Under the pieces are notes generated by a model that saw nothing but the letters and a program-made list of their open reading frames with translations, had not been told where the DNA came from and made no database searches. Shown piece after piece: positions 24,890 to 39,980 of a stretch of DNA of 41,511 bases. A program made the translations under genes and the position numbers. The DNA is taken from IMG/VR virus record IMGVR_UViG_2802429229_000003. One strand, given 5' to 3'. The stretch's first letter is position 1. The number at the start of each line of letters is the position of its first letter. This DNA comes from a virus (Duplodnaviria > Heunggongvirae > Uroviricota > Caudoviricetes).

Positions 24890-25045
24890 TTACTCCTCAG
24901 GTTCGTAAGCTGTGAAGACAGCGACCTCCGTCTGACCGGTTCGGATTCGCACCTCGCAGAGGTCTTTCCTCGTTACCAGTGCCGTCACTATGACGGTTAA
25001 ACAGATGACAATCAGTGCGACTAACATCGCCTTTTGCTGCTTCAT
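24890..25045 (-). CDS. hok: Hok/Gef-family type I toxin, 51 aa
   Basis: MKQQKAMLVALIVICLTVIVTALVTRKDLCEVRIRTGQTEVAVFTAYEPEE: N-terminal TM helix and conserved RKDLCEVRIRTGQTEVAVF core. Confidence 0.85.
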   Translation of the reverse strand: MKQQKAMLVALIVICLTVIVTALVTRKDLCEVRIRTGQTEVAVFTAYEPEE

Positions 25046-25102
25046 AGCCTGCTTCTCCTTGCCTTCCGGCGCGTAAGAGGCTAACCTACATGTGCAAAGC
25101 AT
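24890..25102 (-). CDS. mok-like in-frame upstream extension of hok, 70 aa
   Basis: In-frame ATG at 25102 gives MLCTCRLASYAPEGKEKQA then the Hok sequence, the same arrangement as chromosomal mok/hok loci. Confidence 0.5.
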   Translation of the reverse strand: MLCTCRLASYAPEGKEKQAMKQQKAMLVALIVICLTVIVTALVTRKDLCEVRIRTGQTEVAVFTAYEPEE

Positions 25103-25260
25103 GAAATTGGCCTCAGATTAATGTTAAGCGTCTTGCCGGACGCGTAATGTTATCTGGGGCTTTTCTCTATCTGCCGTTGGTGTTCATGCCCGAGGCAGAT
25201 AGCCTCAAGCACCCGCAGCAATTCTACTTAACCCCCGTCACCTCGCCAATATAAAATCAA

Positions 25261-25479: not shown

Positions 25480-25640
25480 CAGCACTTCCTTAAATGCTCT
25501 AAGTCAGAAACAAGCCAACATTTTAGTCCGCTTTGAGCGAAGAGCGGACGCTCGCATCTGTCCCAACACACTGAGGGCTTCACGAACACCTAGGTGTACT
25601 CGTCAACTGGGAAAAAGTCAGATTATCTGCGTAAGTTTCA

Positions 25641-25672
25641 GCGTAAAAATTGGGCACTATAAAAGTGCCCAA
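25641..25672 (-). terminator. Intrinsic terminator of the KAP NTPase gene (9-bp stem plus U5)
   Basis: Minus strand UUGGGCACU-uuuau-AGUGCCCAA followed by UUUUUACGC, starting about 22 nt after the KAP stop. Confidence 0.6.
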
Positions 25673-25693
25673 ACTGTAGAAAAATACATAATG

Positions 25694-28600
25694 CTATGTA
25701 TCTGAGCCAAACATAGAGCGCCGCCTTGTTATTTTATAATAAGTGGGATTTTCATTATCCACCTCAAAATCAGAGAAGAAGTGGTTATCTCTTAATGCTG
25801 TTAATAAACTTTGATTAGTTGAATCAACTTCAATTTTAGGTTTGCCTCGCCCCAAAATTTTACTGAACTCCGATAAACCAAGCAGATCAAGATACTCTTT
25901 GCAAGTCGTCTTACTCAAATCCTTACCCGGCAACAAAGCGATTAGCAGTGCTATTTTATTCTGCATATTCAGTCCCTCTGCGACAAACAGGTTTTTTAGT
26001 AACGGTTCAGAAACATCATTAGGACTTGCTATCAATGCTGATATATCCTGTATTGCTCGACTCAAGATGAGCGACTGAGTAGAGGTTCCCCAAGTTTTAT
26101 AAGATGACGTCAAGATTAGAAGTTCATCTGGTTTAAAATTATTTTCTAAAATATAGTCATTAACGACCTGAGAGTAATTCTTACTATAAATAGCCAACGG
26201 AGTTTTAACAAACTCGAGTAGCTTAACTTTCAAATCATCATCAACTTTCCAAGAAAGTATTGATATAGCCTCATCCAAAATAAAGTTATCAATCGTCATT
26301 AATTCAACGTATGCCCTGATATTCTTATGAATATAATAGGAAAGTTGCTCTGAATAGTTATCTCGTATGAAATTAAGTGGCGCAACATTCATACGAATAA
26401 TATTTTTATCCACTAATATTTTGAACTTATCACTCGCGATATTACTAGCGCTAAAGGATGTTTTACAAATAATATTTAGTGAGCAAATTAATTTTTCATA
26501 TTTATCATTTGATAAATCATTACAGATAACAATCGATTTAAATAATTTACCTTTAAGCTCGTTATCAATATTAATATTTTGAAAATTCAGGTCTACATCA
26601 GTTCTATTGATAAATTCGATAAGTGAGTCATCCAGTCCATCAACATGTTCAAAATAAGAGACAATATTTTCCTCAGAGCACACTGCTCTATCTTTATCCA
26701 ACAAAGATGACCATAAAGATTCGCTCTCAACCTCACTCAGAGATGTCACGAAAGTTTGCAAAGCGTTTATATACTGGCCTTTTTGTTCATCAGATATTCC
26801 CTCATTATTAAGAACGGATAAAACAATGGATTCATCATCCACGATTGAACCATCACAACTAGATAAAACCATATCCAGATAGTCCCTAATATGGTTATTA
26901 ACATAACTAGCCAAGGGAGAATCAGGTTGTGACATCACTAGTGTATAGTTCTTATGGCGAATATCATCTTCACTATTAAGCGTGTAAACCTTACTCAGCA
27001 TTAAGGTCAGGTTGGAAAAATTAATATCATAAAGTGAATGCTGGTAAACCGCATCAAAGAGTACTTTATTTGCGTTTTCAAATTTAATACTGACAAAAGA
27101 GACGTTAAGCAACTTAAAACCACTAATTAATTTGTCAACCTTCGGTTCTGATATTGCTAAATAACCTGCCGAATCAGAGATGTAATCAGTCAGACAATCA
27201 TCAATATTAATGGCCTCGATGGCGTCATTGGCAGAATAATAAAACGTGCCTATAGAGTAGAGTTTAACCCAATCAGCAGAAAATTCACTCTCTGTCAGCG
27301 CATAAGAAAAAAACTCAGGCCACTGTGTATTTAATCGATTAATGAAGACAGGCTGAGCCCTCTCAGTTTCAAAGTAACCACGAATAAACTCAACTCTTCT
27401 ATCTTTTCTTAGTTGTTTGAATAAACGTTTTATTAAGTTTACCTGGGCTGGCGTTTGAAGCAGATAAGCTAATAAATCAAAATTAAGCGCCTCTTCCTGT
27501 TCAAAATCCACTTCTCGAAGGCGGGCAACGACCAGCTTGGGGTTCTTGAGTTGATAAGTGAACTCTTTGCCTTTTTGATCGGTAATGCTGCGTAAAAACA
27601 TCTTATCAATTCGACTCAGGCTATTTTCATAAAAATAGGTCATATAGTCGGTATAGGTTTCATCAATATAACCATCACGAATAAGGTATTTAAGCAAGTC
27701 AAAATACTCACTGCTTTTTATTTCATTAAAGTCTCTTTCCTCTCCAATTTCATTGGTATAGGTGAGTTTAAATATTTCATCAATGTTTTCTCTAGTTATT
27801 ACTTCTTTAAGTCTTTTGTTTCTAAAATCAACCAAACTTTCTCTTGATCTTGATATAAGCTCATTAATTTCTTCTATTTTACCATTAAATTTATTTTCAA
27901 CACTTTCTTTTCTAGCCGCCCTTCTCTTTGCTATATCAGCTTTCTCAGCCTGATTATAGTGAGGATGATTATTATATCTAGATAATTCCTTATCGTATAT
28001 AGCATCAACCTCCTGACTAGAGTTGAGTATTTCATCATTGATTGCCTCAATCTCTTTTTTTCTATCTCTAATATCTTTTTCTATTTTCTTTATTTCTTCA
28101 ATAATAAGGTTGTCTTTTTCACTAAATATGGTATAAACCATACCTTGATTAAGTTGCAACTCACTAAAATCTCTTGGGAAAATATTCTTATAGGCAATAA
28201 TGGCCAACATTTTATTACAGTCAAGTTCTGTCGTGTTTAATTTGTTATAATAAATTTGAAATTCGTTATAAATATTCTTCAATATTCTCATATCATCAAT
28301 ATATAAAGACATCCCTTGTAGAAATCTTTCATTGAACAACTTGAGAATACCACCACCATCAAAATGTGTGATAAACTGATCGTAAGAGTTAGAACTATCA
28401 ACAACAGGAATAACTGGAATGATATAATCAAAGAATTTGGTTCTATCCTTCGAAATGAAGATATCATCACGAAGCAAGTAAATAAAACGTAACGTCGATT
28501 TCTTGTGCCCTGCTGTGTCCCGTTGAATATTAACCAGTCTGTTAACCTCATGAAGACGTTCAAAGATGTTATTACTATTAAAACGGTCCATGTCTTCAAA

Positions 28601-29326
28601 AACAATGGCATCAGCATCAACGTTCTCGAAAAGGTACAATACTTCATTTAAATATCTATCGAAATAAGACTCGTTACTTTCTTCAAAAATCTCTATTTCA
28701 TTACCCTGTAAATTTATTTTCTTAAGAACATTACGATTCTTTTGGGTTTTTATTAACTTGTAAATGAAAATACAAGATAGGATAGTACATATAAACCCAC
28801 TAATTAAAAGCGTATCGTATTTAGTTGATAATGTAAGTAGTGTCTTTATATTACCTTCAGATAAAAGTGAAACAAACTTTTCCCACTTATTAAATAGCGT
28901 GATATGTAGTATCATAGCGATAAATAACACCGTAAAGATGGTGTTTATCACAATGTTGTTAGTTTTTATTTTTTTCTTTACTTTAAAATGTGTCTGGGGA
29001 ATATCATCAGCATTAATTTGGTGAATTAACTGGTTAAGAACTTTACCTTCTAACGCGGTTTCATTTATATCTTTACTTGGTTCATTAGTTTCAGCTTCCT
29101 CAATCGATCTGAAATGAGCAAGTGAGATATGAACAAACTTTATATTTGAATGACTTTTCTTATAGGATTCGATAAGACTACTTTTTCCTGCGCTATATTG
29201 CCCTGATATCGCAACATTTTTTAGATCGTTATTGGCAAAAACAAAATCTATCGCATTTTTATATACACCCAGCTCAACATCGCTGAACGGCGTTAACTTT
29301 TGAAATTTATAGCTATCATCACTCAT
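25694..29326 (-). CDS. KAP-family P-loop NTPase, 1210 aa, with two transmembrane helices inserted between Walker A and Walker B; AT-rich moron
   Basis: Walker A GQYSAGKSS (aa 42-50, nt 29177-29203); hydrophobic helices at aa ~123-145 and ~172-192; Walker B DAIVFEDMDR (aa 239-248, nt 28583-28612); about 950-aa C-terminal region with a coiled-coil-like stretch. RBS GGGAAGGGA before ATG at 29326. Sampled lines about 25-30% GC. Confidence 0.8.
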   Translation of the reverse strand: MSDDSYKFQKLTPFSDVELGVYKNAIDFVFANNDLKNVAISGQYSAGKSSLIESYKKSHSNIKFVHISLAHFRSIEEAETNEPSKDINETALEGKVLNQLIHQINADDIPQTHFKVKKKIKTNNIVINTIFTVLFIAMILHITLFNKWEKFVSLLSEGNIKTLLTLSTKYDTLLISGFICTILSCIFIYKLIKTQKNRNVLKKINLQGNEIEIFEESNESYFDRYLNEVLYLFENVDADAIVFEDMDRFNSNNIFERLHEVNRLVNIQRDTAGHKKSTLRFIYLLRDDIFISKDRTKFFDYIIPVIPVVDSSNSYDQFITHFDGGGILKLFNERFLQGMSLYIDDMRILKNIYNEFQIYYNKLNTTELDCNKMLAIIAYKNIFPRDFSELQLNQGMVYTIFSEKDNLIIEEIKKIEKDIRDRKKEIEAINDEILNSSQEVDAIYDKELSRYNNHPHYNQAEKADIAKRRAARKESVENKFNGKIEEINELISRSRESLVDFRNKRLKEVITRENIDEIFKLTYTNEIGEERDFNEIKSSEYFDLLKYLIRDGYIDETYTDYMTYFYENSLSRIDKMFLRSITDQKGKEFTYQLKNPKLVVARLREVDFEQEEALNFDLLAYLLQTPAQVNLIKRLFKQLRKDRRVEFIRGYFETERAQPVFINRLNTQWPEFFSYALTESEFSADWVKLYSIGTFYYSANDAIEAINIDDCLTDYISDSAGYLAISEPKVDKLISGFKLLNVSFVSIKFENANKVLFDAVYQHSLYDINFSNLTLMLSKVYTLNSEDDIRHKNYTLVMSQPDSPLASYVNNHIRDYLDMVLSSCDGSIVDDESIVLSVLNNEGISDEQKGQYINALQTFVTSLSEVESESLWSSLLDKDRAVCSEENIVSYFEHVDGLDDSLIEFINRTDVDLNFQNINIDNELKGKLFKSIVICNDLSNDKYEKLICSLNIICKTSFSASNIASDKFKILVDKNIIRMNVAPLNFIRDNYSEQLSYYIHKNIRAYVELMTIDNFILDEAISILSWKVDDDLKVKLLEFVKTPLAIYSKNYSQVVNDYILENNFKPDELLILTSSYKTWGTSTQSLILSRAIQDISALIASPNDVSEPLLKNLFVAEGLNMQNKIALLIALLPGKDLSKTTCKEYLDLLGLSEFSKILGRGKPKIEVDSTNQSLLTALRDNHFFSDFEVDNENPTYYKITRRRSMFGSDT

Positions 29327-29732
29327 TGATATCCCTTCCCAATCTTCACCGAGAGAGCTGGCTTTCGGAGTTAATCAAACAAAATCATGCAGATAAAATT
29401 TCGCCTTATTATAGCAGACACAACTGCAAAGATTAGCTAAAGCCTCGTTGTTTTCTTCATCTATCCCTATAATTTTACACTACAGTTAGCACTTACTATA
29501 CCTGAAAGCTTTGCTCGTAAAGAGCACAATCGCAAGTCAGCAAAGCACGACTTTGCAATCGAGCGCCGCTAAAACAGTGCTGAATCGCTACGACTTAGGC
29601 AGCCATCTTATCGGTTGGCAGATAATTTCTAACTTCCGCTTCTGGCACAAAGCGGACAACCACGCTAGCTCTCCCCTGTGCCAGAAAAATGTCAATTTAC
29701 ATATGAACTAATGCTCTTTGATCTAGTAACGT

Positions 29733-30149
29733 CTATAAATACCGAAGATTTCCTTGATAAAATGCCAGTACACGTTTCATAACTTCACTCTTCCGGCACT
29801 CGCGACAGATTATGTTCTGACGCCTGTCATAGCGGCGTATTTCTCCGTCTGGTAATGACCAGATAAGGTCAGGATCAACCACAACCGTTTTTTTCACCTT
29901 TGCCCTGGATAGTTTTTTGCGGGCGTTTTTCCAATCCTTACGAGCCTGTTCAGACGGGAATAACCCATAGCCAGAGTTGTATACATCGCCACTGGCAACC
30001 AACTCTCTGGCAAGAATGCTCATCAGATATCTTGTCGCACCTGTCTTGGCCTCCAGTTGCCTTAACGTCTCGCGCCCACTCTGGCGTACCAACTCAACAA
30101 CCTGCTCCTTAATTTTTTCACGCTCTTCCTGTGTAAAAACTTTTGCCAT
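29733..30149 (-). CDS. Hypothetical protein, 138 aa, possible winged-helix DNA-binding protein
   Basis: ATG at 30149 with GGAGG RBS; no counterpart recalled in K-12 Rac. Confidence 0.5.
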   Translation of the reverse strand: MAKVFTQEEREKIKEQVVELVRQSGRETLRQLEAKTGATRYLMSILARELVASGDVYNSGYGLFPSEQARKDWKNARKKLSRAKVKKTVVVDPDLIWSLPDGEIRRYDRRQNIICRECRKSEVMKRVLAFYQGNLRYL

Positions 30150-30164
30150 AAGCGCCTCCGGCAA

Positions 30165-36103: not shown

Positions 36104-38725
36104 ATGAGCACAAAACCACTCTTCCTGTTACGGAAAGCGAAAAAATCATCCGGTGAACCTGACGTCGTCCTGTGGGCAAGCAACGATTTTGAATCGACCT
36201 GTGCCACTCTGGACTACCTGATCGTTAAGTCAGGTAAAAAACTGAGCAGCTATTTTAAAGCTGTTGCCACGAATTTTCCTGTCGTTAATGACCTGCCCGC
36301 TGAAGGTGAGATCGATTTTACCTGGAGTGAACGCTATCAACTCAGCAAAGACTCCATGACATGGGAACTAAAACCGGGAGCAGCACCAGACAACGCTCAC
36401 TATCAAGGCAATACCAACGTCAACGGCGAAGACATGACTGAGATTGAGGAGAATATGCTACTCCCAATTTCTGGCCAGGAACTGCCCATTCGTTGGCTTG
36501 CTCAACACGGCAGCGAAAAACCGGTAACGCACGTTTCACGCGACGGACTCCAGGCATTACACATTGCTCGGGCTGAAGAACTACCGGCTGTTACTGCCCT
36601 GGCTGTTTCCCACAAAACCAGCCTGCTCGACCCGCTGGAAATTCGCGAACTCCACAAACTGGTTCGTGACACTGACAAAGTTTTCCCTAATCCTGGTAAT
36701 TCAAACCTGGGACTGATAACTGCTTTTTTCGAAGCATACCTGAACGCTGACTACACCGATCGAGGACTGCTGACAAAAGAGTGGATGAAGGGTAATCGTG
36801 TTTCACACATCACTCGCACGGCTTCCGGTGCTAATGCTGGCGGCGGAAACCTCACCGATCGCGGCGAAGGTTTCGTACACGATCTGACGTCACTGGCGCG
36901 CGACGTAGCCACTGGCGTACTGGCCCGTTCAATGGATCTGGACATCTATAACCTTCATCCGGCACACGCTAAACGCATTGAGGAAATTATCGCTGAAAAT
37001 AAACCGCCCTTTTCTGTTTTCCGCGACAAATTCATCACCATGCCTGGCGGGCTGGATTATTCCCGCGCCATCGTGGTTGCGTCCGTAAAAGAAGCACCAA
37101 TTGGGATCGAGGTCATCCCCGCGCACGTCACTGAATATCTGAACAAAGTACTGACTGAAACCGATCATGCCAACCCTGATCCGGAAATCGTGGATATTGC
37201 CTGCGGTCGCTCCTCTGCCCCGATGCCGCAGCGAGTAACAGAAGAAGGAAAACAGGATGATGAAGAAAAACCGCAACCATCTGGAACAACGGCAGTTGAA
37301 CAGGGAGAGGCTGAAACAATGGAACCGGACGCAACTGAACATCATCAGGACACGCAGCCGCTGGATGCTCAGTCACAGGTAAATTCTGTTGATGCGAAAT
37401 ATCAGGAACTGCGGGCAGAACTCCATGAAGCCCGGAAAAACATTCCATCAAAAAATCCTGTCGATGACGATAAATTGCTTGCTGCATCACGTGGTGAATT
37501 TGTTGACGGAATTAGCGACCCGAACAATCCGAAATGGGTTAAGGGGATCCAGACTCGCGATTCTGTGTACCAGAACCAGCCAGAAACGGAACAAAACACG
37601 CCAGAAACGGAAAAAACCAGCCCGGATGTGAAACAACCTGAGCCAGTAGTGCAACAGGAACCGGAAATAGTCTGCAATGCCTGCGGTCAGACTGGCGGGG
37701 ATAACTGCCCTGACTGTGGTGCGGTGATGGGCGACGCAACATACCAGGAAACATTCGATGAAGAGAATCAGGTTGAAGCTAAGGAAAATGATCCGGAGGA
37801 AATGGAAGGCGCTGAACATCCGCACAATGAGAATGCAGGCAGCGATCCGCATCACGATTGCAGTGATGAAACTGGCGAAGTCGCAGATCCCGTAATCGTA
37901 GAAGACATAGAGCCAGGTATTTATTACGGAATTTCGAATGAGAATTACCACGCGGGTCCCGGTGTCAGTAAGTCTCAGCTCGACGACATTGCTGATACTC
38001 CGGCACTGTATTTGTGGCGTAAAAATGCCCCCGTGGACACCACAAAGACAAAAACGCTCGATTTAGGAACCGCTTTCCACTGCCGGGTACTTGAACCGGA
38101 AGAATTCAGTAACCGCTTTATCGTAGCACCTGAATTTAACCGCCGTACAAACGCCGGAAAAGAAGAAGAGAAAGCGTTTCTGATGGAATGCGCAAGCACA
38201 GGAAAAACGGTTATCACTGCGGAAGAAGGCTGGAAAATTGAACTCATGTATCAAAGCGTTATGGCTTTGCCGCTGGGGCAATGGCTTGTTGAAAGCGCCG
38301 GACACGCTGAATCATCAATTTACTGGGAAGATCCTGAAACAGGAATTTTGTGTCGGTGCCGTCCGGACAAAATTATCCCTGAATTTCACTGGATTATGGA
38401 CGTGAAAACTACGGCGGATATTCAACGATTCAAAACCGCTTATTACGACTACCGCTATCACGTTCAGGATGCATTCTACAGTGACGGTTATGAAGCACAG
38501 TTTGGAGTGCAGCCAACTTTCGTTTTTCTGGTTGCCAGCACAACTATTGAATGCGGACGTTATCCGGTTGAAATTTTCATGATGGGCGAAGAAGCAAAAC
38601 TGGCAGGTCAACAGGAATATCACCGCAATCTGCGAACCCTGTCTGACTGCCTGAATACCGATGAATGGCCAGCTATTAAGACATTATCACTGCCCCGCTG
38701 GGCTAAGGAATATGCAAATGACTAA
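36104..38725 (+). CDS. recE: Exodeoxyribonuclease VIII (RecE), 873 aa
   Basis: Long ORF with acidic low-complexity middle region; C-terminal nuclease region matches RecE as recalled; stop overlaps the recT start. Confidence 0.85.
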
Positions 38726-39583: not shown

Positions 39584-39778
39584 ATGAGATATGACAATGT
39601 TAAACCATGTCCATTTTGTGGTTGTCCATCAGTAACGGTGAAAGCCATTTCAGGATATTACCGAGCGAAGTGTAACGGATGCGAATCCCGAACCGGTTAT
39701 GGTGGAAGTGAAAAAGAAGCACTCGAAAGATGGAATAAACGAACCACTGGAAATAATAATGGAGGTGTTCATGTATAA
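39584..39778 (+). CDS. ralR: Restriction alleviation protein Lar (RalR), 64 aa
   Basis: MRYDNVKPCPFCGCPSVTVKAISGYYRAKCNGCESRTGYGGSEKEALERWNKR; zinc-ribbon CxxC...CxxC. Confidence 0.7.
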   Translation: MRYDNVKPCPFCGCPSVTVKAISGYYRAKCNGCESRTGYGGSEKEALERWNKRTTGNNNGGVHV

Positions 39779-39980
39779 AATTACCGCCACTATTGAAAAG
39801 GAAGGTGGCACTCCTACTAACTGGACAAGATATTCAAAATCTAAACTAACGAAATCAGAATGCGAAAAAATGCTCTCAGGTAAAAAAGAAGCAGGCGTTT
39901 CCAGAGAGCAGAAAGTAAAACTGATAAATTTTAATTGCGAGAAACTTCAGTCCTCGAGAATTGCATTGTATTCAAATTAA
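39771..39980 (+). CDS. ydaC: YdaC-like protein, 69 aa
   Basis: ATG at 39771 overlapping the lar stop; MYKITATIEKEGGTPTNWTRYSKSKLTKSECEKMLSGKKEAGVSREQKVKL... Confidence 0.6.
   Translation: MYKITATIEKEGGTPTNWTRYSKSKLTKSECEKMLSGKKEAGVSREQKVKLINFNCEKLQSSRIALYSN

What the first reader, a model, noticed from the sequence alone, without database searches (positions are those of the whole stretch)
29327..29732. Roughly 400-bp structured non-coding region upstream of the KAP NTPase gene
Unusually long for this compact genome. It contains nested inverted repeats (CTGGCACA ... TGTGCCAG; CCGCTT ... AAGCGG; GCAAAG ... CTTTGC) and a minus-strand TGTAAAAT element near 29471-29479 that could be an extended -10 promoter, giving the KAP mRNA a leader of about 140 nt. 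It could hold a regulated promoter, a riboregulator or an sRNA controlling the NTPase.
Basis: partly seen in the sequence, partly recalled or inferred. Interest (0 to 1): 0.35.

Follow-up and report, generated by a model that had tools for sequence, protein, structure and literature searches.

The report
Border palindrome of a mobile defence cassette
The 400-bp gap is not one regulatory RNA but a seam: the NTPase gene's own upstream DNA, probably holding its promoter, joined to the prophage at a 24-bp palindrome that marks where anti-phage gene cassettes are swapped between phages, islands and chromosomes.

Summary
The gap (29327-29732) and its inverted repeats are real, but it is not one structured leader. 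It is a mosaic of three parts.

(1) 29327-29633 travels only with the YobI/KAP (Tmn-like) NTPase gene. It is found in 32 of 5426 E. coli genomes and diverges at a near-neutral rate. It is no more structured than shuffled sequence. It holds a conserved TGcTATAAT (29408-29416, minus strand) and a Shine-Dalgarno sequence.

(2) 29634-29657 is a 24-bp palindrome, "R" (stem GTCCGCT/AGCGGAC, centre TGGCAC). A partner, "L" (centre GAGCGA), lies at 25526-25549. Together they delimit a 4.13-kb AT-rich cassette. The same cassette occurs in four unrelated contexts, and each time homology ends inside the palindrome centres.

(3) 29658-29732 is prophage backbone found in about 990 E. coli genomes whatever the cargo.

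L/R pairs bracket at least 43 different cargos, mostly defence genes. They occur in lambdoid prophages, at the P2 Z/fun locus, in islands and in chromosomes, sometimes as arrays (L-cargo-R-18 bp-L-cargo-R). A review credits Nilsson et al. 2004 with inverted repeats and site-specific exchange at fun(Z). This is therefore a new member or extension of a known kind. The recombination mechanism is inferred and the enzyme is unknown.

The parts
29733..30164 (-). DUF977 gene, last backbone gene of the prophage early-right (replication) block before the variable region
   Evidence: Pfam PF06163 E 3.3e-31. The same gene flanks the variable region in L001, L002 and L004-L007.
29658..29732 (.). Backbone segment 3' of the DUF977 gene ('module B'). 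It carries the distal arm TGTGCCAGAA (29677-29686), which is complementary to the centre of R.
   Evidence: Window ~29626-29732 (R plus this backbone segment) matches in 991 of 5426 E. coli genomes at 82-97% identity, irrespective of the cargo to its left. TGTGCCA lies 19-20 nt after R in 47/49 lambdoid and 20/30 P2-like backbones and in 0/21 internal doublets.
29634..29657 (+). R palindrome: T-TCCGCT-TC-TGGCAC-A-A-AGCGGAC. It is the right border of the cassette and the junction between cassette-specific and backbone DNA.
   Evidence: Invariant core in 7 loci with different neighbours (A1). The block shared with a CP4-like island ends exactly at 29657. At least 120 IMG/VR contigs and at least 120 genome contigs carry the exact pattern. 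Conservation drops to nothing a few bases to its left.
29640..29686 (.). 10-bp inverted repeat TTCTGGCACA / TGTGCCAGAA (27-nt spacer). Its left arm lies within R, so it forms an alternative structure that competes with the R hairpin.
   Evidence: I4. It is the dominant helix in minimum-free-energy and centroid folds on both strands. 1% of shuffles reach 10 bp.
29327..29633 (-). Cassette-internal upstream region of the NTPase gene ('module A'); holds the probable promoter and 5' UTR
   Evidence: Found in only 32 of 5426 E. coli genomes, single copy. The eight copies whose context was inspected all lie next to this gene. 31 copies are identical and one is 92.2% identical. It has 0 variable columns among 7 copies. 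It shows 7.8% divergence in strain A30 against 7.6% at third codon positions. Not structured beyond shuffles.
29408..29416 (-). TGCTATAAT, candidate extended -10 promoter of the NTPase gene (start site expected near 29401)
   Evidence: Read directly. It is the only match on the minus strand in the window, but the motif alone is weak: 3 matches in the window against 1.38 expected. It lies within an 18-nt block unchanged in the diverged A30 copy. No experimental support.
29472..29479 (-). It contains a TAAAAT -10-like hexamer without a correctly phased TG. On the plus strand the same spot reads TATAAT (29468-29473).
   Evidence: TAAAAT is kept in A30, while the plus-strand TATAAT becomes TATGAT.
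29332..29337 (-). Shine-Dalgarno AAGGGA, 5 nt upstream of the ATG (29326-29324)
   Evidence: Direct reading. The 36 nt before the ATG are identical in A30.
25694..29326 (-). Cargo gene: 1210-aa YobI-like/KAP-type P-loop NTPase, Tmn-like candidate anti-phage protein
   Evidence: Pfam PF20693 YobI-ATPase E 1.7e-122. PADLOC Tmn E 2e-66 over residues 9-439 only. GC is 0.29-0.36 against 0.46-0.53 in the flanks.
25650..25672 (-). Intrinsic-terminator-like hairpin plus T-run just after the NTPase stop codon, inside the cassette
   Evidence: TTGGGCACTTTTATAGTGCCCAA followed by TTTTTACGCT.
25526..25549 (+). L palindrome GTCCGCT-TT-GAGCGA-AG-AGCGGAC, the left border of the cassette. It has the same stem as R, and its centre is an inverted variant of the R centre (2 differences).
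   Evidence: Found as a 2-mismatch inverted match to the R pattern. It coincides with the left end of the block shared with L003. The same element lies on the far side of the cargo in L001, L003, L004, L006, L250 and many IMG/VR loci.

Best explanation
The gap is the right-hand seam of a 4.13-kb mobile cassette (window 25526-29657) inserted in the variable spot between the DUF977 gene and hok/sok of a Rac/Qin-like lambdoid prophage.

The cassette is a self-contained moron. It has its own upstream region with a probable extended -10 promoter and a Shine-Dalgarno sequence, one AT-rich gene for a Tmn-like KAP/YobI NTPase, and its own terminator. It is bounded by two 24-bp palindromes with the same 7-9-bp arms (GTCCGCT.. 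/ ..AGCGGAC) and different 6-bp centres: L = GAGCGA and R = TGGCAC.

These palindromes are shared border elements of a pool of exchangeable cargo cassettes, mostly defence genes. They are found in lambdoid prophages, at the P2 Z/fun locus, in CP4-like and other islands, and in enterobacterial chromosomes.

Shown: the mosaic structure, the shared borders, the arrays, and the fact that homology between copies of a cassette in different contexts ends inside the palindrome centres.

Inferred: recombination (R with R, L with L) within or next to the 6-bp centre swaps or inserts cassettes. This could be done by an unidentified trans-acting site- or structure-specific enzyme, or by short-homology annealing. 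It is also inferred that the NTPase gene is transcribed from its own promoter in the lysogen, and that the backbone TGTGCCA arm modulates or marks the terminal R site.
For: Mosaic. The block 25526-29657 is 99.86% identical in a CP4-like island whose flanks are unrelated. About 29626-29732 (R plus the backbone beyond it) occurs in 991 genomes, 29327-29634 in only 32.

Borders. The R core is invariant while the sequence to its left differs between loci (A1; profile). L lies at the far end of the cargo.

Four contexts for the same cassette, each cut inside L and R: lambdoid prophage, CP4-like island, a chromosomal array next to an ABC-three-component system, and strain A30 near ldtA/cobT. A second cassette (1009 bp) shows the same pattern between lambdoid and P2-like backbones.

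Crossover position. In R, position 17 follows the right flank (A in 49/49 lambdoid, G in 28/30 P2-like), while positions 1 and 8-9 follow the cargo. In L, the left half follows the backbone and the right half follows the cargo.

Pool and arrays. 43 cargo families sit between L and R in about 125 viral contigs. Arrays of the form L-cargo-R-18 bp-L-cargo-R occur. 7 of 10 cargo proteins tested hit PADLOC models: DRT UG17, TIR, CBASS cyclase, HNH effector, PDC-S33, NsnA and Hp2.

P2 link. The contigs of right cluster 1 carry P2 tail genes. P2 itself keeps a decayed L copy beside fun(Z). A review states that fun is flanked by inverted repeats enabling site-specific exchange, citing Nilsson et al. 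2004 (PMC8987985).

Moron features. Terminator; AT-rich composition; conserved TGCTATAAT and ribosome-binding block.
Against: No recombinase or other enzyme is linked to the palindromes. The only adjacent integrase-like gene (PF12835, strain A30) is absent from all other loci.

The number of independent context switches analysed is small: two cassette families and about six junction pairs. A 24-bp identity could also support ordinary or RecET/Red-type short-homology recombination.

The same hairpin is a REP-like repeat between housekeeping genes in soil Alphaproteobacteria. The element may therefore have a general, non-recombinational role, for example in mRNA or nucleoid biology.

The promoter is a motif match only, and the TGNTATAAT count in the window is not above chance. 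Nilsson et al. 2004 could not be read, so identity of their repeats with L/R is presumed, not verified.
Confidence: 0.65

Rival explanations
1. The gap is a long structured 5' leader, riboregulator or sRNA locus whose inverted repeats control expression of the NTPase.
For: The inverted repeats are real, and 29625-29700 is strongly structured. -10-like hexamers exist on the minus strand. The gene needs a promoter somewhere in the gap.
Against: The two strongest repeats belong to elements present with unrelated cargo in about 990 genomes, and they lie upstream of both candidate promoters. There is no Rfam family under the gap and no terminator. Whole-region and leader folds are not better than shuffles. 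Divergence is near neutral in the one diverged copy.
Confidence: 0.08
2. L and R are REP/BIME-like extragenic palindromes that act on RNA or DNA topology (mRNA 3'-end protection or processing, insulation of cargo from phage read-through, gyrase or nucleoid-protein binding). Cassette borders coincide with them only because they are the sole conserved sequences around variable cargo.
For: The doublet architecture is BIME/REPIN-like: two palindromes with the same stem and inverted, slightly different centres, 18 nt apart. The identical hairpin forms multi-copy extragenic clusters between housekeeping genes in Alphaproteobacteria and lies between ordinary accessory genes in Pantoea, Mixta and Leclercia. 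L folds better on the plus strand through T.G wobbles.
Against: Cargo lies in either orientation relative to the hairpins. No U-tract follows either hairpin. The strand on which L is most stable is antisense to the prophage operon and to the NTPase gene. The split of variable positions between cargo and backbone points to exchange inside the element itself. The wobble asymmetry is not significant once shared descent is considered.
Confidence: 0.2
3. There is no dedicated system. The 24-bp palindromes are only short homology anchors used by general or phage-encoded recombination (RecA, RecET of this Rac-like prophage, Red-type annealing) when related elements meet.
For: The window encodes RecE (36104-38725). 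24 bp is near the minimum for annealing-based recombination (my own knowledge). No recombinase co-occurs with the sites.
Against: This does not explain why the same 24-bp palindromes, with conserved centres, are kept in unrelated backbones (lambdoid, P2, islands, chromosomes). It also does not explain the doublets with a fixed 18-nt spacer, or why crossovers fall between positions 9 and 17 rather than across the whole element.
Confidence: 0.2

Closest known systems
Inverted-repeat-flanked fun(Z) module of P2-like coliphages (Nilsson, Karlsson and Haggard-Ljungquist 2004, Mol Biol Evol 21:1; as summarised in PMC8987985)
   Same: Non-essential cargo flanked by inverted repeats. The same borders occur in phages and in enterobacterial genomes. 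Exchange at the repeats was proposed. The L/R pair found here brackets variable cargo at exactly that P2 locus, between tail-fibre assembly gene G and sheath gene FI, in 30 P2-like contigs. P2 itself keeps a decayed L copy.
   Different: Here the site lies in a lambdoid prophage between DUF977 and hok/sok, and the cargo is a Tmn-like NTPase. The original paper could not be read, so I cannot say how much of this it already contains.
Integron gene cassettes and attC sites
   Same: Imperfect palindromes separate single- or few-gene cassettes. Arrays have uniform site orientation. The cargo is rich in defence genes. The crossover lies inside the site.
   Different: There are no RYYYAAC/GTTRRRY boxes and no adjacent IntI. 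The sites are 24 bp (or 66-bp doublets) rather than 57-141 bp. Cassettes carry their own promoter, and cargo lies in either orientation.
pdif (XerC/XerD-site) modules of Acinetobacter plasmids (from my own knowledge, not checked here)
   Same: Discrete modules are bounded by short inverted recombinase-type sites (arm, 6-bp centre, arm). They are found in many replicons without a linked recombinase gene, and a host enzyme is presumed to act in trans.
   Different: The arm sequences are unrelated to dif/XerCD sites. There are two heterospecific centres. The hosts are phages and islands of Enterobacterales.
REP/BIME/REPIN extragenic palindromes
   Same: Short palindromes occur in inverted pairs with a short spacer, are extragenic, and exist as families with variant loops. 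The identical hairpin is a multi-copy extragenic repeat in Alphaproteobacteria.
   Different: The sequence differs from the classical E. coli REP consensus as I recall it (no alignment was run here). In E. coli the element is low-copy and tied to variable spots of mobile elements. No RAYT transposase was found.
Morons of lambdoid phages (Juhala et al. 2000, from my own knowledge)
   Same: An AT-rich gene with its own promoter-like and terminator-like signals is inserted between two backbone genes that are nearly adjacent in relatives (L005: 249 bp between L and R).
   Different: Classical morons are not defined by conserved border palindromes.

Membership tests
Inverted-repeat-bounded exchangeable module (P2 Z/fun type, Nilsson et al. 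2004) | Non-essential cargo bracketed by a pair of conserved inverted repeats | tested here: met
   L at 25526-25549 and R at 29634-29657. L matches the R pattern in inverted orientation with 2 mismatches.
Inverted-repeat-bounded exchangeable module (P2 Z/fun type, Nilsson et al. 2004) | The same repeats are present at the Z/fun locus of P2-like phages | tested here: met
   30 IMG/VR loci have R next to the P2 G-like gene and L next to the FI-like gene. L009 is 100% identical to P2 in the E/E' genes. P2 carries TTCCGCTTCTCGCTCAAAGGAAAC beside fun(Z). No R copy is found in the P2 reference.
Inverted-repeat-bounded exchangeable module (P2 Z/fun type, Nilsson et al. 2004) | Identical cargo in different replicons, with homology ending at the repeats | tested here: met
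   The Tmn cassette in 4 contexts and the 1009-bp cassette in lambdoid and P2 backbones.
Inverted-repeat-bounded exchangeable module (P2 Z/fun type, Nilsson et al. 2004) | The repeats described in the 2004 paper are the same sequence as L/R | not testable with these tools
   The paper is not held. Only a one-sentence summary in PMC8987985 is available.
Inverted-repeat-bounded exchangeable module (P2 Z/fun type, Nilsson et al. 2004) | Recombination at the repeats demonstrated, and the enzyme identified | not testable with these tools
   This needs experiments. No co-occurring recombinase was found.
Integron cassette / attC | attC with R''/L''...L'/R' boxes (RYYYAAC ... GTTRRRY) | tested here: not met
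   The sequences of R, L and the R-18-L doublets lack these boxes.
Integron cassette / attC | Integron integrase and attI next to the array | tested here: not met
   The neighbours are DUF977, hok/sok, P2 tail genes, DinI and a GTPase. The only integrase-like neighbour (PF12835) is unique to one locus.
REP/BIME/REPIN | Extragenic palindromes in inverted doublets with a short spacer | tested here: met
   R-18 bp-L doublets. Doublets and triplets with a 45-nt period occur in Alphaproteobacteria.
REP/BIME/REPIN | High copy number dispersed around the host chromosome | tested here: inconclusive
   Up to 14 copies per 8 kb in alphaproteobacterial MAGs. In E. coli the R-containing segment has a median of 1 place per genome.
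REP/BIME/REPIN | A cognate RAYT (Y1/HUH) transposase flanked by the repeats | not tested
   None was noticed among ORFs next to inverted clusters in L227, L231, L144 and L165, but no profile search was run.
cis-regulatory leader / riboregulator / sRNA | Match to a curated RNA family | tested here: not met
   Rfam at gathering threshold finds only RalA and sok elsewhere in the window. At E<=10, the only hit inside the gap (29327-29732) is a chance-level miRNA-model match (E 8.7).
cis-regulatory leader / riboregulator / sRNA | Thermodynamic structure beyond composition, or conservation beyond the neutral rate | tested here: not met
   z -0.78, -0.56, -0.11 and +0.86. 7.8% divergence against 7.6% at third codon positions. 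Covariation could not be assessed, because the copies are identical but for one.
Moron | Own promoter and terminator, deviant composition, and insertion between genes that are adjacent in relatives | tested here: met
   Terminator. GC 0.29-0.36 against about 0.5. L005 has only 249 bp between L and R. The promoter is a motif match only.
Tmn / KAP NTPase defence protein (the cargo) | KAP/YobI P-loop NTPase domain | tested here: met
   PF20693 E 1.7e-122 over residues 22-398. Two hydrophobic helices inside the domain were read from the sequence.
Tmn / KAP NTPase defence protein (the cargo) | Full-length similarity to validated Tmn, and anti-phage activity | tested here: inconclusive
   The PADLOC Tmn model matches only residues 9-439, to profile positions 27-474 of 1273. 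Activity is untested.

The most novel reading that the evidence does not exclude
The L and R palindromes are the recombination sites of an unrecognised, trans-acting cassette-exchange system. Two heterospecific 9-6-9 sites, R with R and L with L, would make it functionally like recombinase-mediated cassette exchange or a promoter-bearing integron. The system would move defence genes between lambdoid phages, P2-like phages, genomic islands and chromosomes of Enterobacterales. It would be evolutionarily related to a REP-like repeat family of soil Alphaproteobacteria. This would supply the missing mechanism for the rapid defence-gene swapping that recent surveys (PMC9122126, PMC13586616) describe as unexplained.
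Probability: 0.3. Interest if true: 0.85.

Novelty: new member of a known kind. Interest (0 to 1): 0.55.

Why it matters
Surveys of phage and satellite hotspots report that defence genes are swapped extremely fast, even between unrelated mobile elements. They state that the recombination process is unknown and that defence systems carry no mobilisation function (PMC9122126; PMC13586616).

This window shows a concrete, sequence-defined candidate. Two 24-bp palindromes bracket the cargo, recur at several hotspots in different element types, form arrays, and contain the breakpoints. That makes the question directly testable by site mutagenesis, exchange assays and a search for the enzyme.

It also gives a simple rule for harvesting unknown defence genes: take whatever lies between an L and an R. 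For annotation, it warns against reading such conserved hairpins as gene-specific riboregulators.

Tried and rejected
- **Rfam, gathering and E<=10:** nothing under the gap.
- **Small ORFs in the gap (36, 66 and 35 aa):** no Pfam hits. The 66-aa ORF runs across R and is taken as spurious.
- **Sigma-54 promoter idea (TGGCAC):** rejected by reading, because there is no TTGC at the -12 spacing.
- **Intrinsic terminator role for R or L:** rejected. No T-run follows them and the scan found none.
- **svsR, a prophage sRNA:** it lies at the 3' end of cI and is unrelated.
- **Integron attC:** rejected (see the membership tests).
- **Integrase_1 (PF12835) gene next to the A30 copy as the recombinase:** absent from all other roughly 260 loci.
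- **K-12 Rac:** the region after ydaW is deleted or rearranged, so it is uninformative.
- **The search for related loci with the NTPase protein:** returned only identical copies, so no covariation test of the leader was possible.
- this used the wrong coordinates of L009 (stored orientation). It hit P2 genes E/E' instead of the R region. It is useful only as proof that L009 is P2-like.
- **Strand asymmetry of wobble pairs in L (T.G 19 against C.A 1 at pair 4-21):** not significant given shared descent, and absent in R.
- **Literature searches for the motif or for hairpin-flanked cassettes:** they found no description apart from the citation of Nilsson et al. 2004.
Full report
**Setting.** The window is a Rac/Qin-like lambdoid prophage. 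Rfam finds RalA (39777-39955, minus) and sok (25040-25214, minus). The ORF list shows late genes, a replication block and an 873-aa recE-like ORF. Related loci are annotated with recE, kilR, sieB, dicA/dicC, ydaT-like genes, DUF977 and hokD.

The gap 29327-29732 lies between the start of a 1210-aa minus-strand gene and the stop of a DUF977 gene. The large gene is a YobI-like P-loop NTPase (PF20693, E 1.7e-122). Its N-terminal 430 residues match the PADLOC Tmn model.

**Checking the observation.** All three inverted repeats are present. The 10-bp repeat TTCTGGCACA/TGTGCCAGAA is reached by 1% of dinucleotide shuffles. The 76 nt around it fold far better than shuffles on either strand (z -3.9 and -3.5).

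- The 406 nt as a whole are not unusually structured (z -0.78 and -0.56).
- The stretches that would form the leader are not either (z -0.11 and +0.86).
- The gap is not exceptional in length for this window.
- A correctly phased TGCTATAAT lies at 29408-29416 on the minus strand. That motif alone is not above chance in the window: 3 matches against 1.38 expected.

**The gap is a mosaic.** BLAST against 5426 complete E. coli genomes splits it in two.

- Positions about 29626-29732 match in 991 genomes at 82-97% identity, always after a DUF977-type gene, whatever lies on the other side.
- Positions 29327-29634 occur in only 32 genomes, in single copy. The eight copies whose context was inspected all lie next to the NTPase gene.
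- The two parts overlap on one 24-bp palindrome: T-TCCGCT-TC-TGGCAC-A-A-AGCGGAC (29634-29657), here called R.

In an alignment of seven loci with different neighbours, the R core is invariant and the sequence to its left is unrelated between loci (A1). In 93 distinct IMG/VR contexts, information content falls to zero about 4 nt to the left of R.

**A second palindrome and a cassette.** An inverted, 2-mismatch copy of the R pattern lies at 25526-25549: GTCCGCT-TT-GAGCGA-AG-AGCGGAC, here called L. The block that the window shares at 99.86% identity with a CP4-like island (next to a GTPase gene and Ag43) runs exactly from 25526 to 29657, that is from L to R.

The cassette is AT-rich (GC 0.29-0.36 against about 0.5 in the flanks). 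It carries a terminator-like hairpin plus T-run right after the NTPase stop codon (25650-25672).

The same cassette occurs in two further contexts:

- In a chromosomal array next to an ABC-three-component system near ydeP, arranged as R-18 bp-L-cassette-R.
- In strain A30 near ldtA/cobT, at 95% protein identity. There the outer halves of both palindromes are degenerate while the inner halves are kept.

In all four contexts the cargo-proximal half of each palindrome stays with the cassette and the distal half changes with the context.

**A general system.** After orienting on R, an L element lies 249-5804 bp to the left in most loci. In 21 loci an L lies 14-22 nt (typically 18 nt) to the right of R. 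Some loci show L-cargo-R-18-L-cargo-R arrays, all co-oriented.

Sequences between L and R fall into 43 families of 1-7 ORFs on either strand. Seven of ten tested cargo proteins hit defence models: DRT UG17 reverse transcriptase, TIR, CBASS cyclase, HNH effector, PDC-S33, NsnA and Hp2.

The backbones are:

- **DUF977-type lambdoid prophages:** 49 loci with at least 12 cargo types.
- **A second lambdoid lineage:** DinI, DUF968 and Q on one side.
- **P2-like phages:** 30 loci with at least 20 cargo types, where the pair sits between the tail-fibre assembly gene and the sheath gene. This is the classical Z/fun locus.

Phage P2 itself retains a decayed L copy beside fun(Z) and has no R.

**Where the exchange happens.** R has few variable positions.

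- Position 17 tracks the right flank: A in 49/49 lambdoid backbones and G in 28/30 P2-like backbones.
- Positions 1 and 8-9 are fixed within each cargo family.
- The Tmn cassette keeps TC at positions 8-9 in its three near-identical copies (the diverged A30 copy has CC), but has A, G, A and T at position 17 in its four contexts.
- The 1009-bp cassette keeps GT at positions 8-9 and switches A to G at position 17 between lambdoid and P2 backbones. Its unusual right arm of L (AGCAGAC) stays with the cargo, while position 4 of L follows the backbone.

The junctions therefore lie between positions 9 and 16-17, at or beside the conserved 6-bp centres (TGGCAC in R, GAGCGA in L). With arms of 9 bp, the sites have the 9-6-9 layout typical of tyrosine-recombinase core sites. 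The two different centres would make R and L heterospecific. This is an analogy and an inference, because no enzyme is identified. The only adjacent integrase-like gene (PF12835, strain A30) is absent from about 260 other loci. Short-homology annealing, for example by the prophage's own RecET, remains a live alternative. The number of independent events examined is small.

The distal arm TGTGCCAGAA belongs to the backbone. TGTGCCA lies 19-20 nt after R in 47/49 lambdoid and 20/30 P2-like backbones. It is never found after internal (doublet) R copies, and nothing comparable precedes L. It competes with the R hairpin in every fold. Its role is unknown. It may be a mark or modulator of the array-terminal site, a second protein-binding half-site, or merely shared ancestry of about 50 bp.

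**The cassette-specific 308 bp.** Thirty-one copies are identical. The A30 copy differs at 24 of 308 positions (7.8%). This equals third-codon-position divergence of the gene (7.6%), so most of this DNA is not under detectable constraint.

The unchanged blocks include CGTTGTGTCTGCTATAAT and the last 36 nt before the ATG, with AAGGGA 5 nt upstream. I therefore assign the probable promoter to 29408-29416 and a leader of about 75 nt. This is a sequence inference only. The roughly 220 bp between that promoter and R have no assigned function. Recent work describes similar leftover intergenic DNA in defence hotspots as remnants of recombination (PMC13586616).

**Literature.** Two hotspot studies do not mention border palindromes, and both state that the exchange mechanism is unknown:

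- Rousset et al. 2022 (PMC9122126).
- The 2026 NAR study of P2/P4 hotspots (PMC13586616).

[quoted passage not shown] That paper is not held. I therefore treat the border repeats as previously described at the P2 locus. I treat the lambdoid DUF977-hok/sok site, the arrays, the two centre types and the breakpoint mapping as extension rather than discovery.

**An unexpected relative.** About one chance match would be expected from my own estimate for 20 specified bases in roughly 1.2e12 scanned positions.

- In Enterobacterales (Pantoea, Mixta, Klebsiella, Enterobacter, Citrobacter, Leclercia and others) the element occurs as R-L doublets between accessory genes.
- Most hits are soil Alphaproteobacteria (Pseudolabrys, Xanthobacteraceae, Hyphomicrobiales). 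There ATGTCCGCTwTTGGCACAwAGCGGACAT forms co-oriented, multi-copy clusters between ordinary chromosomal genes.
- These clusters have sister hairpins 45 or 91 nt away that keep the stem but have other loops.

This is REP/BIME-like behaviour. It keeps open a general, non-recombinational function for the hairpin.

**Verdict.** The regulatory-RNA interpretation is largely not supported. The gap is the junction of a self-contained defence moron with its prophage, made at a conserved border palindrome of an exchangeable-cassette family.

Noticed in passing
L129-L248 (e.g. L146, L242, L207): The exact R hairpin is a REP-like, co-oriented, multi-copy extragenic repeat in soil Alphaproteobacteria MAGs, with up to 14 copies per 8 kb. 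Sister hairpins with the same stem but other loops (TTCGGGGGTAA, TTTGACCCAA, ATTGGAGTAAC) lie at a 45- or 91-nt period. Single hits come from MAGs labelled Acidobacteriota, Actinomycetota and Terriglobales, and from a Pseudomonas.
   Followed up: partly
window 29677-29686; flanks of R in L008-L127: The backbone motif TGTGCCA, complementary to the R centre, sits 19-20 nt after R in 47/49 lambdoid and 20/30 P2-like backbones. It is never found after internal R copies. Its function is unknown.
   Followed up: partly
L261:142-1026 (E. coli A30): A 294-aa PF12834/PF12835 'Integrase_1' protein is encoded about 170 bp from the L end of the diverged Tmn cassette. It was not found in any other fetched locus.
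   Followed up: yes
window 39777-39955 and 25040-25214: Full-length Rfam matches to RalA (antitoxin RNA of RalR, 225 bits) and sok (111 bits). The hok/sok locus lies about 310 bp from the L border of the cassette.
   Followed up: no
L001:1364-5000 (E. coli ST2350): In this strain the Tmn gene is annotated as three separate hypothetical CDSs (2142, 552 and 681 nt), so the cargo appears disrupted. In L002 an ISEc8 (IS66-family) element replaces the left end of the cassette, including L.
   Followed up: no
L038, L049, L065, L067, L081, L091, L108, L123: The commonest cassette in the IMG/VR sample is 1009 bp. It encodes one 269-aa Cys-rich protein with no PADLOC hit, and it occurs in both lambdoid and P2-like backbones. 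It is a candidate unknown defence gene.
   Followed up: partly
L128:1941-1964 (phage P2 17440-17463): Reference P2 carries a half-decayed L-type palindrome (TTCCGCTTCTCGCTCAAAGGAAAC) between fun(Z) and the pF activator site, followed by TGTCAGATT. In P2-like contigs, TGTCAGATT follows R and its reverse complement AATCTGACA precedes L, so the two form inverted flanks of the array.
   Followed up: partly
L242, L207, L165 (alphaproteobacterial loci): Spurious ORFs beginning MSAFDPKRT arise from translating the hairpin ATGTCCGCTTTTGACCCAAAGCGGACA. This could seed false protein families in MAG annotations.
   Followed up: no
L231:3151-4176: An IS110-family-like transposase ORF (recognised only from its N-terminal sequence; no domain search was run) lies about 700 bp from a cluster of the REP-like hairpins in a Pseudolabrys-type MAG. 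IS110-family elements are known to target REPs (my own knowledge).
   Followed up: no
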